A stretch of DNA of 64,000 nt from Octopus sinensis (GCF_006345805.1 NC_043002.1:63550001-63614000), one strand, 5' to 3'. Shown: positions 1,686-49,411, counted from the first letter of the stretch. Made by a program: numbers and translations. The notes: generated by a model from the sequence alone, not told the origin.

Positions 1686-2030
1686 ACATTTAAACACATA
1701 AGGAATACACTCGTGGAATTCAACACGCTAGAAAGAACAGCTAGATTCTATAATCACAAAATTAGGGATAAAATTAGACAGGAACAAAATGAAAAAAAAA
1801 CCCTTTTATTTTTTTATTTTATTTTTTTTTCATTTCATTCCTCGAATTTTATCCCTAATTTTGTGGTTATAGAACCTTTCTACCATCTTGAATCCCACGA
1901 GTGGATTTCTTATGTGTTTAAATGTTCAGTGTATTTTATGAGTAATGCAGAGTCTTTGGACTAAATTTTTACACGTTAGGCCACTGGAAGTGAAAATTTC
2001 AGTTAATTTCCATTTCCCTTCGATATGATT
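1686..2030 (+). mobile_element. fold-back element (inverted arms ~1686-1800 and ~1820-1925 plus right extension) between CA/TA microsatellites
   Basis: acatttaaacacataagg...tcacaaaattagggataaaatt matches the reverse complement of aattttatccctaattttgtgg...cttatgtgtttaaatgt. Confidence 0.75.
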
Positions 2031-2059
2031 ATATATATATAGTCCGATAATTTCAAATT

Positions 2060-2268
2060 GTAACCCCGTTGAATCGTTAGCGATTTTCTTTTTCCGTCAT
2101 CCCTTCTTTTGGACTTTCCTCTATTTCTGAAGATGAGTTTGCTCGAAAAAATAAATCCTCTTTCTTTCCTTTCCTGACTGTCTGATAATACAGTACATGT
2201 ACCACGTCTTTGTGTTGTATTTTTTTCATGTTTTTTCTTCTTTGTTTGAATTCCCTAACATACATACA
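2060..2268 (+). mobile_element. short PLE pLTR-like element with minimal hammerhead-like motif (same family as 40993-41195)
   Basis: CTGAAGA(2127)-TGAG-TTT-GCTC-GAAA(2145); pyrimidine-rich body similar to 41.0-41.2 kb; flanked by (TA)n; cleavage-site region degenerate. Confidence 0.6.
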
Positions 2269-2654
2269 TTATATATATATATATATATATATTATATATA
2301 TATATATATATATATATATATATATATACATATATACATACACACACACATATATGCATACACACGCACATACATATATATATATGTCACCTTGTAATCC
2401 ATTCAGAACTTCTATTCAACGGCAGTCTTATGAATAGCTGACATGCCTATCATTTAGTGCAGAGTGTGTATGTAGAGACTTTTATCTTTGTTATTTATAA
2501 TGAGAATCGTCAGAAGATTGCAGTAGTAAAATTTTATGGTCACGTTGGTATTGGTTTATTGTCATGGTCGACAAGACACTAAGAGTCTTATTAAGGTAGT
2601 TAGCATATGGTTTGCCTCAAACTAATCACAAAGTGGCAATATAGCAATAAAAGA

Positions 2655-2855
2655 TATCGAGCAGGCAGAATCGTCAATGCGTCGGGTGAAATGCTAAGCA
2701 GTATTTCATCCGTGCTTATATTCTGTGTTCAAATTCCGTCCAGGTCGACTTTGCCATTCATCCTTTCGGGGTCGATGAAATAAGTACCAAATAAATACTG
2801 GGGTCGATGTAATCGACTTACCCTTCCCACGAAACAGATGGAATTTAAAACCAAT
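2655..2855 (+). mobile_element. tRNA-derived SINE family A (Meta-domain-like core)
   Basis: B-box-like GTTCAAATTCC and core gtcgactttgcc.ttcatcctttcggggtcgat.aaataagtacca; many copies in window. Confidence 0.85.
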
Positions 2856-3821
2856 GTAGCTACACTTTTTCACGCTCTTGTATTCAGAATGAGCCTTAAG
2901 CTAACTTAATTCAAGCCAAATTTCCTGTGATGACTCGTGGAAACATTCGACCCTGTTGCAGATTCAAAATATACCATATGTAGTTTTCCGTCATTATCAA
3001 GTGCTGTATATTTTTCCTTAGCTAGTTTTACCTCGTTCAGATTTATCCTGGGTGGAATCCCCACATATCCATTTACAATGTCACACAGCGAACCAAAGTT
3101 CTCATATCTTTTTATTTCACTTTTGTAACTCATATATCTCATTTAATTCAGCGCGTGTTTTGTATTTACATATAAATAAACGTATTTGCATATGCAAAGG
3201 TTGTTCTGAGCATCGTCAGCTGGTGGTGTCAGTCATTCGCATTGCTATGTTTAGGGTTCAAGGGCATCTGTGTGCATTTGCGTATATTGTCTGTCAATAT
3301 GTGTATATATTATACCTCATGTAGTGCATGAGTGTGACTGCGTTTATATATATGAAATATAATATATATTTAAATTAGAGAAAAACCAATATTATGGAAT
3401 TCAAACAATGATAGACATAAACCATATAGAAAAAATAAAATATATTATAAAACATATATCAAGATCACAAAAAAGTACAAAAATGGATAACCATTAAATA
3501 ATAAGTAAAAAGACTACGTACGTTTGGTGGCTATAACTCCAATTCGAATTGCAATTAAATTTAAATTTAATCCAATTATATATATATATTATATATAATA
3601 TATATATATATATATATATATATATATATATACATGTATGTATGTATAAATATACAGATGATGAGCATGTGATGTTTGCGTGTGTGCTAGTGTAAATATA
3701 TACATATATATTTATAATTATATATATATATGTATTATATATATATATATAATATATATATATATATATAATATATATATATAGATAGATAGATAGATAG
3801 ATAGATAGATAGATAGATAGA

Positions 3822-4080
3822 TACTGTTCTATAGTTTAGAGATGAGGCGTTCTGTACATATTTACAATATTTGCATTGGACAGATGTATCCTCATCTTCT
3901 TTGTTGTTACCACAAAGTTTCGGTTGATTTATTCTCAGTCTTCATCATAGATCCTGGTGAAATTTCGATCCCGGCTTTGGGTGCACGTTCCTAAGGTATT
4001 TTTTGCTGATGCTTCCATCATCATCGAAGGCACTGCATGAAACTGAACTCGGAATCTTAGGGTTAGAGGCCCGCGCCCTT
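3822..4080 (-). mobile_element. degenerate copy of the tRNA-head + hammerhead-pLTR element (family of 37052-37578)
   Basis: minus strand reads truncated tRNA head (aagggcgcgggc...gagttcagtttc), aaaaataccttagg body, degenerate core (a)TGATGA..GAAAC, and the same 3' end tatagaacagtatc. Confidence 0.75.
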
Positions 4081-4091
4081 ATATTTATTTA

Positions 4092-4326
4092 TATATCCCA
4101 TCAACTTTAAACAGAGTCTGGATAGATTCCTTCAACGAATACCAGATAAGCCACCCATAATTGGATACAACTCACCCAACAAGAACTCACTACTTGAACA
4201 AAACTTAACTTAAACAAAACTTGACTTAAACAGGATTCGAATAATCCTATCAGGTGGTGCTATTAAGTTAGACATGGCCTGGACCAATCTTTGGTCGAAA
4301 CATATCTAAGTTTATCTAAGTTTATA
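4092..4326 (+). mobile_element. CR1/L2-group LINE 3' end fragment
   Basis: translates YPINFKQSLDRFLQRIPDKPPIIGYNSPNKNSLLE*, typical of CR1-like ORF2 C-termini; 3' hairpin gacca..tggtc and tandem tail (ctaagtttat)x2. Confidence 0.7.
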
Positions 4327-46615: not shown

Positions 46616-47819
46616 CTAATCATTATAGTCGTGATTAGGATGTCGATGGTGCTCACATAAATACCAAATGTAAAAATTAATCAAACTATTTCTATACATA
46701 TACACACACACACGAAGAATTAAACGACGCAAAAAAAAACAAAAAATTATACACACATATGACAAACACCACATTTCAACCACGCATGATAAAGTTGAGT
46801 GAGAAAAAAATAACAAATGCCGTATCAACCGAGAAGAACAACGGTAACAAAGATATCAACAGCTACCAAGTGCATTAAAAAGAAGCGTTTATGAAACTAG
46901 CAACAAAGACGATCAATCTGCATGTGTGTGTATATATATATATATATATGCATATATGTATGTTCTATGTATGTATGTATGCATGTGTGCGTGTATGTAT
47001 GTTTGCACGTACACTTGTATGCGTGTACGTATACATATATACATATATATATATAATATATATATATATATATATATATATATATATATATATATATATA
47101 TATATATTATATATAAATATGCATATACACACAGAAATATATCCATACAAATTGACATATATATATATACATATACATATATATATATATATATATATAT
47201 ATATATATATATATATATATATGTATATATATGTATACATATATATATATATAATATATATATATATATATATATATATATATATATATATATATATATA
47301 TATATGAATATATATATATATAAATATACACACACACACATATATATATATATATATATATATATATATATATATATATATATATATATACATATATATA
47401 TATATATTCACACGATTCGTTAAAAACACCAAACTCCTGATTAATTTAACGATAGTAAAGGTGTTATATATTGGATAAGATATAAAAATAAGAACATATG
47501 CTCTTAATTCCCGAAAACTATCTTTTACACCATTATTTCAATGTTACATCAGTAACTTCCTGCAAAGATTTTCAGATTTCAATAGTTACTGACAAAAATA
47601 AAACGAAAACGAACAATGAAAAATGAAACGCTGCCACTTCACTGTCCGTTTTTAACATCCATCACTATTTTCATATTAACATTTGATGGAAATCAATAGA
47701 ACTGACAAGAAGAAATTGACAAGGATTTTGCAGAAAATAAAGTATTTCACAAGTTTGTATATACATTGGATATCATACTAATGTGCGTGACTTTGTTATG
47801 TAGCTTATCTTTTTTATCT

Positions 47820-48030
47820 TTGAACTTTTGTACTAGTTTCAGTCATTAAACTGCGGCCATGTTGGTGCACAGTTTTTTAGAAACTATATTCGGATGTATC
47901 GACCCTGGTACATTATGTTAAGCCTGCGACATATACTATCGATCTCTTTTACCGGACCGATGGTTACGGGGATATAAAGAGACCAACACCGGTTAACCTG
48001 TTGGCAGAGCGAGAGAAGGACACATACATA
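47820..48030 (-). mobile_element. SINE family B 3' half, diverged
   Basis: gtttcagtcattaaactgcggccatg..gttacgggga. Confidence 0.75.
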
Positions 48031-48159
48031 GATATATACATAGACATGCATAAATACATATACGTATAGGGGAGTATTCACAAAAACGAAAAGACGAATA
48101 CAGGTGGTGTAGACAACGAATAGATAGTTTAACGCTCGGGATATATATATATATATAAA

Positions 48160-48495
48160 GGGGTAAAGACCCCCTTCGGTCATGAATGACCATGGGATTG
48201 CACCTAGAAAGTTACCCTCCTAGACACAAGTCCGGGCAAGGTTGTTTATGGAAGGCCAGCAGTCGCCCATGCATACCAGCCTCCCCTCTCCACGCCACCA
48301 GTGTTATCCAGGGGAAAGACAAAGGTCGATACAGTTTGGCACCCATGACGTCGCAACTCATTTCTACAGCTGAGTGAACTGGAGCAACGTGAAATAAAGT
48401 GCCTTGCTCAAGAATACAACACGCAGCCCGGTCCGGGATTTGAGCTCACAACCTCACGATCGTAAGCTCGACGCTCTAACCACTGAGCCATGCGC
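48160..48495 (-). mobile_element. full-length tRNA-derived SINE family C in (TA)n
   Basis: minus strand gcgcatggctcagtggttagagcg (A box)...gagctcaaatccc (B box)...cttgagcaaggcactttatttcac..cactcagctgtagaaatgagt. Confidence 0.88.
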
Positions 48496-48529
48496 TAACC
48501 ACTGAGCTATATATATATATATATATCCT

Positions 48530-48782
48530 ATAAATAATAAGGATGGTATTTTTATATAAACGTAAAGCTTATGCCGATCACCAATGACTAAGAAAAATAT
48601 TCTAATAAAGAGGCATGTAAGCCCTCAGATACAGAAACACAAAAAGGCTTTCCTATCCGCGTGAGCTTTCTTTTTCTGTCTAGGGCTTATTTGCCCCTTT
48701 ATTTGATTGTTTTCTATAGACATTGCACGGTGATCGCCATAAGGTTTAAGCCTATATATAAGTACAATTATTATTATTTATA
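48530..48782. mobile_element. diverged fold-back element
   Basis: ataaataataa..cttatgccgatcacc..taagccct pairs with agggctta..ggtgatcgccataag..ttattattat. Confidence 0.8.
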
Positions 48783-49132
48783 TGATTGTAAATTCGGCGC
48801 CGTATTAAAAAAAATATTCGCACCGAAAGCGTAGATGTACATAGGTTTTCAAAGCGATGAATAGCTTTGCGGAAATCAAGGTTCGCTTTCTTTTCTGACT
48901 TTATTATCATCTTATAATCATCTCATAATAATGACTTTTATGACTTTTATTACTACCTCAGACCATCTAAATGTATATATTTGTCGTTACCGGTCACAAA
49001 AAGCCTTTTTTTAAAATTTACACTGTGGAGTTTTGTTGATTTTTCATATTTTACCTTTACATTTCCACGTGTATTTTATATTTTATATATTCTTTTTGTA
49101 ACATATTTCTACTATATATATATACATATACG

Positions 49133-49411
49133 ACTTATAAACAAGGGCAAAAGAAAAAGATTTAAATACCAAATATGCTGAAATAGACTTAATCGTCAAT
49201 AACCATATAGTTTATCACTATAAGCACGCGTCTCGAAAGCAAGCCGATAGAAATTTCTTTAAAAATGGGTTATTATCGGATCGGTCCCAATTTCTGAATT
49301 AATTCAATTAGAATTTTCTCGTCATCAGCGATAAATACGATAAGAAAATAAATGAAATACTTACTTGTACCCACGGCATTGACATTTTTTCTTTCACCCT
49401 TGTTTATAAGT
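49133..49411. mobile_element. element with ~28-bp terminal inverted repeats and degenerate minus-strand hammerhead
   Basis: cttataaacaaggg..aagaaaaa and tttttctttcacccttgtttataag; minus strand CTGATGA..tttc-GAGAC-GCGT at 49222-49330. Confidence 0.6.

What the first reader, a model, noticed from the sequence alone, without database searches (positions are those of the whole stretch)
1686..49411. Eight or nine unrelated head-to-head fold-back insertions sharing one geometry
Seen: palindromic elements at 1686-2030, 4354-4742 (duplicated), 16695-16981, 31415-31985, 32407-32740, 37052-37578, 44774-45076, 48530-48782 and 49133-49411. They have no evident sequence similarity to each other. Most show a shorter inverted left arm, a short spacer and a right arm that extends further. 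Three have long TSDs (17, 12 and 14 bp), and most of the others sit in (TA)n. Where hammerheads are present they point outward on opposite strands. This does not fit MITEs, which have symmetric TIRs and short fixed TSDs. Inference: one PLE-type integration mechanism (template fold-back or second priming) acts on many small RNAs and seeds the genome with long dsRNA hairpins. In a coleoid these could serve as ADAR or siRNA substrates if the region is transcribed.
Basis: partly seen in the sequence, partly recalled or inferred. Interest (0 to 1): 0.72.

Follow-up and report, generated by a model that had tools for sequence, protein, structure and literature searches.

The report
Folded-back Penelope retrotransposon ends
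Nine mirror-image repeats in this likely octopus DNA are real and are the cut-short ends of nine different high-copy repeat families, likely all inserted by Penelope-type jumping genes in an already described back-to-back layout, and hairpin RNAs of one family appear to be chemically edited by the host.

Summary
All nine fold-backs exist (arms 51-177 nt, 74-99% alike) and each belongs to a separate family with about 800-3,800 search candidates. In 270 sampled loci, 149 are head-to-head fold-backs; inner junctions vary while outer ends are mostly fixed, which excludes MITEs. Two families lead into Hydra-clade Penelope-like (PLE) ORFs, one into a Neptune/Nematis-type ORF, one probably into a Hydra-type ORF; five occur as ORF-less tandem units (retrozyme-like), one with clear Pol III A/B boxes. 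Eight of nine families carry a hammerhead fold. Inverted copy plus tail, (TA)n targets, opposite-strand hammerheads and an O. bimaculoides Hydra family are published, and this scan noted the design at least six times elsewhere. Small additions: tails of 28-170 nt; 11-16 bp target duplications in two families; in a young family either arm can be the longer, yet 10 of 27 pairs stop within 15 nt, which favours two primings, perhaps on one RNA; editing-type changes in two presumed RNA runs fall only in the paired arm. The right-hand tail bias is chance.

The parts
1672..2030 (.). E1 fold-back: arms 1672-1800 / 1822-1939, tail 1940-2030; ORF-less unit of about 440-480 nt; family hammerhead lies just upstream of the truncation; (TA)n flanks
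4346..4772 (.). E2 fold-back, 3' end of a Neptune/Nematis-type PLE; tail 4743-4772; degenerate U3-A8 hammerhead core at +4662
5082..5510 (.). Second copy of E2 inside a 736-bp tandem duplication (99.5% identical); one insertion, not two
16678..16998 (.). E3 fold-back, 3' end of a Hydra-clade PLE; arms 16692-16797 / 16813-16917, tail to 16981; hammerhead core intact at -16787, mutated at +16823; 17-bp TSD with one mismatch (16678-16694 / 16982-16998)
31415..31983 (.). E4 fold-back of a very young Hydra-like PLE family (copies 99-100% alike); arms 177/177 nt, tail 31829-31983; (TA)n flanks
31686..31764 (+). E4 right-arm type I hammerhead fold, pointing outward
   Evidence: 30 of 30 family loci
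31479..31557 (-). E4 left-arm type I hammerhead fold, pointing outward
32398..32738 (.). E5 fold-back; arms 81/81 nt, tail about 170 nt; cut short before the family hammerhead; probably a Hydra-type 3' end (ORF seen at one locus)
37040..37590 (.). E6 fold-back of an ORF-less unit of about 370 nt; arms 37055-37200 / 37406-37550, tail 37551-37578; 12-bp TSD with one mismatch (37040-37051 / 37579-37590)
37341..37399 (-). Pol III A-box/B-box head belonging to the left (tail-less) copy of E6, followed by (AAT)n
   Evidence: 25 of 30 E6 loci, 3 of 30 control flanks; not recognised as tRNA by ARAGORN or Rfam
37109..37154 (-). E6 left-arm minimal hammerhead; the right-arm copy (core at +37456) has a damaged stem I
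44760..45090 (.). E7 fold-back of an ORF-less 353-nt hammerhead unit; arms 44771-44874 / 44930-45032, tail to 45076; exact 14-bp TSD (44760-44773 / 45077-45090)
48517..48833 (.). E8 fold-back of an ORF-less unit of about 320 nt; tail 48783-48833; weak A/B-box head in the family; no hammerhead found
49126..49530 (.). E9 fold-back of an ORF-less 473-nt unit; long left copy with hammerhead core at -49328, short right arm, tail about 49420-49530 (tail length varies in this family)

Best explanation
The nine fold-backs are the truncated 3' ends of nine separate repeat families, each made of two back-to-back copies with a tail on one copy only, and they were likely made by Penelope-like (PLE) reverse transcriptase/GIY-YIG enzymes that copy the RNA twice, once from each broken DNA end. 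Shown: family membership, head-to-head layout, one tail, variable inner junction, long TSDs or (TA)n targets, coding PLE ORFs upstream of three families (a fourth at one locus), ORF-less tandem units in five. Inferred: the endonuclease cuts both strands with an 11-16 nt stagger (or within (TA)n); one end primes at the outer RNA start site (tailed arm) and the other at the inner start site (tail-less arm); both cDNAs stop early and are joined through 0-2 nt microhomology, a short palindrome or a few added bases. The excess of arms that stop at nearly the same place suggests that both cDNAs are often copied from one RNA or by one coordinated dimer. The ORF-less units likely borrow the same enzymes in trans. 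When transcribed inside host RNA the insertions would fold into long hairpins that ADAR can edit.
For: Geometry over 270 loci (30 per family): 149 head-to-head, 7 convergent; one tail 138, both 4, neither 7. In the six families searched with a tail-containing query, 95 of 99 partners of a tailed arm lack the tail; in the three searched with (almost) no tail, 40 of 45 have one tail and none has two. Total lengths vary within each family (E4 429-1,684 nt). TSDs: E6 14 of 18 complete fold-backs (11-15 bp) against 6 of 306 mismatched flank pairs; E7 8 of 13 against 9 of 156. E3-type arm lies downstream of the EN domain on the same strand in 18 of 30 ORF loci; L434 is pLTR-ORF(717 aa)-pLTR with all Hydra motifs, and the tail there is the start of the next unit. 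E4 leads into a 569-aa RT/EN frame that is itself folded back. E2 leads into a broken CxxxxCxxC plus CCHH-type EN in 3 loci. E4 junctions: 27 fold-backs, tailed arm longer in 9, tail-less arm longer in 8, within 15 nt in 10 (permutation mean 2.6; 6 of 19 against 1.2, p 0.0005, after removing a truncation hot spot). In vitro a Poseidon PLE cuts and extends both strands, starts at two RNA sites that bound the tail, and is predicted to be a dimer (PMC11167929). Independent contigs span the E5 centre and the E6 junction, and loose ends pile up at both E6 family ends.
Against: No direct experiment. Samples are the best-scoring 30 loci per family, include the window's own copies and are not all independent (about half of the E9 loci are one duplicated cluster on C27; L189/L190, L211/L212, L214/L234 and L233/L235/L236/L239 share flanks). 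No partner ORF was found for E1, E6, E7, E8, E9, so their mobilisation by PLE enzymes rests on shared geometry. E8 has no hammerhead (0 of 30). PMC11167929 saw no difference in start site between the two strands in vitro, which would predict more two-tail and no-tail copies than seen. Equal-length arms also fit snap-back synthesis. Pfam found no family in five frames, including the full 717-aa ORF, and Rfam listed no hammerhead; clade and ribozyme calls rest on motifs and my own descriptor.
Confidence: 0.85

Rival explanations
1. Snap-back synthesis: one cDNA is made from the tail end, its 3' end folds on a short palindrome and is extended on itself, giving the inverted arm.
For: 10 of 27 E4 fold-backs have arms ending within 15 nt, three of them perfect palindromes with 2-11 nt overlap.
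Against: It predicts that the tailed arm is never the shorter; in 8 of 27 the tail-less arm is longer by 17 to about 990 nt, and in E6 the promoter head sits on the inverted copy in 19 of 25 loci. It does not explain the fixed stop of the tail-less arm.
Confidence: 0.1
2. MITE-like or fold-back DNA transposons with terminal inverted repeats that move as whole palindromes.
Against: That search selects for the shape; with one arm as query only 149 of 270 loci are fold-backs, junctions differ from copy to copy, ends are asymmetric, TSDs are 11-16 bp and arms run into RT/EN ORFs.
Confidence: 0.02
3. Long-read fold-back chimeras or assembly errors.
For: E4 arms are 99% identical; the E2 duplication differs only by few changes.
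Against: Eight of nine have arms 74-88% alike; flanks carry TSDs; contigs of two studies span the E5 centre and the E6 junction. The E4 locus itself could not be bridged.
Confidence: 0.02
4. The side that carries the tail follows a regional polarity (transcription or replication), since all nine tails here point right.
For: 9 of 9 in the window; 13 left against 2 right among short fold-backs in a first look at the upstream 200 kb (post hoc).
Against: Over 864 kb: 31 right, 30 left; same-side neighbours 28 of 60 (p 0.69), 20 of 51 outside the window (p 0.96); longest run of 9 has p 0.06 before allowing for the window having been chosen for it. No skew switch.
Confidence: 0.05

Closest known systems
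Complex insertions of EN+ Penelope-like elements: pLTR, adjacent inverted 5'-truncated copy and one-sided tail (PMC8557442 Fig. 2 text; PMC3846280)
   Same: Head-to-head layout, tail at one end only, 5' truncation, long TSD (8-10 bp in Adineta), (TA)n preference, hammerheads in pLTRs; dual hammerheads on opposite strands 100-700 bp apart were reported in PMC4209133.
   Different: Tails here are 28-170 nt rather than 30-40; TSDs 11-16 bp; I found no published count of one-tail exclusivity or of matched arm lengths.
Hydra clade PLEs, including Hydra-1_Obim of Octopus bimaculoides (PMC8557442 section 11 and supplement)
   Same: E3 family ORF has RWK, DKT, CxCx5C, CxxC..E..N..CxH, no CCHH, hammerhead, (TA)n target; its RT reads like Hydra-1_Obim by eye.
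   Different: Different families; E4 replaces the CxCx5C linker by a long Ser/Asn-rich stretch; the paper saw no pLTR for Hydra-1_Obim, while L434 has two.
Animal non-LTR retrozymes (PMC7229834; bioRxiv 10.64898/2026.07.22.740005)
   Same: ORF-less tandem units of 300-480 nt with a type I hammerhead (E1, E6, E7, E9); proposed there to be mobilised by or derived from PLEs.
   Different: Those papers argue from co-occurrence and pLTR phylogeny, mostly in vertebrates; here the units show the PLE insertion signature itself (inversion, tail, long TSD). E6 adds Pol III boxes; E8 lacks a hammerhead. Cleavage and circular RNA not tested.
L1 twin priming (recalled, not read)
   Same: Second priming from the other DNA end gives a 5' inversion joined by microhomology.
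   Different: In L1 the inverted part is a non-overlapping upstream piece; here both arms repeat the same 3' end, so a hairpin results.
Self-folding Harbinger repeats of Xenopus and edited Penelope of lizard (PMC5625713 passages)
   Same: A repeat that folds on itself is an ADAR target; octopus has the highest share of near-perfect dsRNA loci in that study.
   Different: The passages seen do not name the octopus source; here 17 of 42 inverted pairs of at least 90% identity in 864 kb are abutting with a one-sided tail.

Membership tests
EN+ Penelope-like element insertion | Adjacent inverted 5'-truncated copy (head-to-head) | tested here: met
   149 of 270 loci, 7 convergent; 9 of 9 in window
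EN+ Penelope-like element insertion | Tail on one end only | tested here: met
   138 of 149 fold-backs; lengths 28-170 nt, longer than the published 30-40
EN+ Penelope-like element insertion | TSD or microsatellite target | tested here: met
   E6 14 of 18, E7 8 of 13 against controls 6 of 306 and 9 of 156; E1, E2, E3, E4, E5 mostly simple repeats on both sides
EN+ Penelope-like element insertion | Single ORF with RT and GIY-YIG EN upstream of the end | tested here: met
   Met for E2, E3, E4; one locus for E5; not found for E1, E6, E7, E8, E9 in 30 loci each
EN+ Penelope-like element insertion | Type I hammerhead in the terminal repeat | tested here: met
   Full fold at the family position in E1 5, E2 8, E3 15, E4 30, E5 1, E6 13, E7 8, E9 6 of 30; E8 0 of 30. 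Descriptor is my own; Rfam gave none
Hydra clade (E3 family) | RWK, DKT, CxCx5C linker, CxxC and CxH around E and N, no CCHH, C-terminal EN, (TA)n target | tested here: met
   L434 positions 46, 123, 566, 669, 700; features from PMC8557442 section 11
Hydra clade (E3 family) | Placement in the RT phylogeny | not tested
   Reference proteins could only be read in the supplement; compared by eye
Hydra clade (E4, E5 families) | Same motif set | tested here: inconclusive
   E4: CxxC/CxH met, no CCHH, linker motif absent, N-terminus not seen; E5: one broken ORF, 34-39% identical to E3/E4 frames
Neptune/Nematis clades (E2 family) | CX2-5CxxC linker and two Cys between GIY and YIG | tested here: met
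   L240, L217, L238 frames; the two clades were not told apart
Non-LTR retrozyme (E1, E6, E7, E8, E9) | ORF-less tandem units, at least two in a row each with a hammerhead | tested here: inconclusive
   Two consecutive hammerheads visible in L127 (E7) and L155 (E6); partial tandems for E1 and E9; E8 tandem without hammerhead, so not met for E8
Non-LTR retrozyme (E1, E6, E7, E8, E9) | Self-cleavage and circular RNA | not testable with these tools
   Needs bench work or raw RNA reads
tRNA-derived SINE (E6, E8) | Pol III A and B boxes near the 5' end | tested here: met
   E6 25 of 30 against 3 of 30 flanks; E8 only 6 of 30 against 1 of 30
tRNA-derived SINE (E6, E8) | Recognisable tRNA fold; LINE-derived 3' end | tested here: not met
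   ARAGORN 0 in 12 loci, Rfam 0 in two stretches; the 3' end is PLE-type
MITE / TIR DNA transposon | Fixed symmetric TIRs, fixed short TSD, fixed length | tested here: not met

The most novel reading that the evidence does not exclude
A PLE enzyme dimer primes from both ends of a staggered break on one RNA at two different start sites, so that about half of all insertions are ready-made hairpins; it does so also for ORF-less hammerhead units and Pol III-promoter units (SINEs that ride on Penelope instead of LINEs), and the resulting hairpins, about one per 10-15 kb, are the main source of the unusually high dsRNA and hyper-editing load of octopus.
Probability: 0.3. Interest if true: 0.62.

Novelty: new member of a known kind. 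Interest (0 to 1): 0.3.

Why it matters
The layout is known, so the finding itself is ordinary. Its use is as material: young octopod families give thousands of dated insertions from which the open question of how PLEs make inverted ends and tails (named as open in PMC8557442 and PMC11167929) can be tested, and they show the PLE insertion signature on ORF-less hammerhead units, which supports the proposed PLE-retrozyme partnership by a different kind of evidence. If the hairpins account for much of the near-perfect dsRNA that PMC5625713 reports for octopus, they would help explain its hyper-editing load.

Tried and rejected
Rfam scan of the window: 300 matches at E up to 10, the 150 listed all microRNA models on simple repeats or hairpins, none at gathering score, no hammerhead listed; 0 at gathering score in 8 loci. 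First hammerhead descriptors were too strict. Pfam: 0 families for 5 frames. ARAGORN and Rfam found no tRNA in E6/E8 heads. Regional polarity of the tail side: looked strong in 464 kb, vanished in 864 kb; 39 of 101 abutting pairs could not be called and the duplicate E2 copy was dropped before the count. No host gene could be picked out among 118 masked open frames near the window by eye; base skew uninformative. No RNA holder was listed for window 32800-36900. No empty site for E4, E5 or E6 was seen in four runs; contigs break at the (TA)n flanks. Run X17 (RNA guessed) mirrors the DNA run and shows no editing-type excess. The 17-bp E3 TSD is unusual for its family (1 of 12 against 4 of 132 controls). 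An ORF next to an E9 unit in L279 and ORFs near E7/E8 loci are single cases or on the other strand and were not counted as partners. Two E4 loci (L064, L065) whose inverted part has no visible outer end were left out of the arm-length count. Two small hairpins (54387-54462, 57916-57974) and two weak inverted pairs (31048-31308, 34128-35598) had no relatives in my library and were left unexplained. Supplements of the bioRxiv preprint were not seen.

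
Full report
Setting. The window is AT-rich, full of microsatellites and lies on a 120-Mb contig of a 2.72-Gb genome. That it is an octopod is my inference from the likeness of a resident retrotransposon protein to Hydra-1_Obim.

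1. Observation. All nine fold-backs are present, with arms of 51-177 nt and 74-99% identity; eight were recovered by an unbiased masked self-comparison. They share no meaningful sequence with each other. The three TSDs are there: 14 bp exact (E7), 12 and 17 bp with one mismatch (E6, E3). The second E2 copy is part of a 736-bp tandem duplication. Contigs from two studies span the E5 centre and the E6 junction (library types not on record, X2 may be the same animal, X5 differs by about 1%), so these two are not read chimeras; E4 could not be bridged.

2. What they are. Each is one copy of a high-copy family (791-3,789 first-look candidates; lower bounds). With one arm as query, 149 of 270 loci are head-to-head fold-backs and 7 are convergent; exactly one arm has the tail in 138, both in 4, neither in 7. 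The queries of six families held the tail, so there the informative figure is that 95 of 99 partner arms lack it; for the other three, 40 of 45 have one tail and none two. The loci include the window's own copies and some duplicates (about half of E9). Outer ends fall at two family-specific places, inner junctions anywhere (E4 429-1,684 nt); E9 is the exception, with a variable long end. E6 and E7 give TSDs of mostly 11-16 bp (14 of 18 and 8 of 13; controls 6 of 306 and 9 of 156); most other families sit in simple repeats. Upstream, E3 runs into an RT/GIY-YIG ORF (18 of 30 ORF loci have the E3-type end downstream), and L434 is a whole pLTR-ORF-pLTR element with RWK, DKT, CxCx5C, CxxC and CxH and no CCHH, the Hydra signature of PMC8557442 (section 11). 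In L434 the tail is simply the start of the next unit. E4 leads into a related 569-aa frame, E2 into a broken Neptune/Nematis-type EN in three loci, E5 into a Hydra-type ORF at one locus. E1, E6, E7, E8 and E9 occur as ORF-less tandem units of about 320-480 nt; no partner ORF was seen in 30 loci each, which does not exclude one. A hammerhead fold sits at a fixed place, in sense with the tail, in eight families (1-30 of 30 loci) and in none of 30 E8 loci; the window gave 6 hits against 0-2 in 12 shuffles, 3 of them in E4 and E6, 1 a spurious fold of E2 and 2 elsewhere. E6 carries Pol III A/B boxes (25 of 30; flanks 3 of 30), E8 weakly (6 of 30).

3. Mechanism. Shown: the anatomy above. Published in vitro (PMC11167929, parts 1-2 of 4): a PLE protein cuts and extends both DNA strands, starts at two RNA sites that bound the tail, prefers AT-rich DNA and is predicted to dimerise. 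Inferred: each broken end primes its own cDNA, one at the outer and one at the inner site, and the two truncated cDNAs are joined. In the young E4 family, the 18 complete junctions show 0-2 nt overlap in 10, 7-11 nt overlap in 3 and 2-13 added bases in 5. Among 27 fold-backs the tailed arm is longer in 9, the tail-less arm in 8 (by up to about 990 nt) and the two stop within 15 nt in 10, against 2.6 by permutation. The first result speaks against pure snap-back, the second for coordination, for example both enzymes on one RNA that share its broken end; some snap-back cannot be excluded. One point against: in vitro the two strands used the same start sites, which would give more two-tail copies than seen.

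4. dsRNA. In 864 kb there are 101 abutting inverted pairs, 62 with a callable one-sided extension; among 42 inverted pairs of at least 90% identity, 17 are of this kind. Laid on the E4 right arm and tail, two runs guessed to be RNA (X20, X21; two studies) show 14 places of T>C or A>G absent from the DNA run, all in the arm and none in the tail (naive p 2e-4; few contigs, so not independent); a third (X17) shows none. This fits ADAR editing of family hairpins but is not locus-specific and has no matched DNA. PMC5625713 (passages) reports octopus as top in near-perfect dsRNA and hyper-editing, and a heavily edited Penelope in lizard.

5. A lead that failed. All nine tails point right. A first look upstream suggested regional polarity, but 864 kb gave 31 right and 30 left with no clustering.

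6. Known or new. The inverted 5'-truncated copy, the one-sided 30-40 bp tail and (TA)n bias are described as typical of PLEs (PMC8557442 passages, section 11 and supplement rows; PMC3846280 parts 1-3 of 5); dual hammerheads on opposite strands in PMC4209133 (parts 1-2 of 4); retrozymes as non-autonomous PLE partners in PMC7229834 (passages) and bioRxiv 10.64898/2026.07.22.740005 (parts 1-3 of 5). PMC6962438 (passages) only lists Penelope and hammerheads in squid. Searches gave no paper on octopus fold-back counts, matched arm lengths or Pol III-promoter PLE passengers; the library lacks most subscription papers. L1 twin priming is recalled. Earlier notes of this scan report the same design, the tRNA-like passenger and editing; I had reached the PLE reading before that look-up.

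7. Verdict. Real, well explained, mostly known: new members of known PLE clades and retrozyme-like units, with a few quantitative details that make the insertion mechanism testable. Interest 0.3.

Noticed in passing
window 3821-4080: A further, older E6-family copy on the minus strand with tail and promoter head, not folded back; its tail points left.
   Followed up: partly
window 4346-5820: 736-bp tandem duplication, 99.5% identical, with (TA)n borders; very recent or an assembly duplicate.
   Followed up: partly
window 16388-16532 and 16950-17097: 80% direct duplication that overlaps the right flank of E3.
   Followed up: partly
window 19222 (+) and 49609 (+): Two further hits of my hammerhead descriptor outside the nine elements; near the chance rate.
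   Followed up: no
window 31048-31308, 34128-35598, 54387-54462, 57916-57974: Weak or small inverted pairs with no relatives in the sampled loci; the first and second may be old fold-backs.
   Followed up: partly
window 2650-2800, 6803-7029, 17129-17778, 33586-33766, 36907-37049, 39996-40212, 51302-51781, 59271-59863; and 7981-8089, 20955-21393, 23594-23963, 39610-39924, 42888-43587, 50695-51125, 61620-62080: Two abundant SINE-like families in both orientations, one also in a 184-nt tandem at 59325-59808.
   Followed up: no
G000 list (e.g. C1:52725079-52727472, C2:175672400-175675213): Among 150 Hydra EN matches I counted by eye 12 close pairs, all head-to-head, 2 tandem, none convergent: the same fold-back at ORF scale.
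   Followed up: partly
L434 1278-4125: Complete Hydra element with an open 717-aa frame and 98.9% identical pLTRs; with E4 copies 99-100% alike, PLEs were active very recently in this genome.
   Followed up: partly
E1, E5, E7, E9 family hammerheads: Several families have an extra unpaired base on both sides of stem II (before G10.1 and after C11.1) and a short palindromic helix III; E1 and E2 use the U3-A8 core variant in some copies.
   Followed up: no
E4 family, about 385-395 nt from the tail end: Hot spot of 5' truncation; may mark an RNA 5' end.
   Followed up: partly
L272-L300, G000 C27 8.35-9.33 Mb: About 15 near-identical copies of one E9 fold-back inside a larger duplicated block.
   Followed up: no
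flanks of many loci: At least six more hammerhead families with palindromic helix III, so the PLE diversity here is larger than the nine.
   Followed up: no
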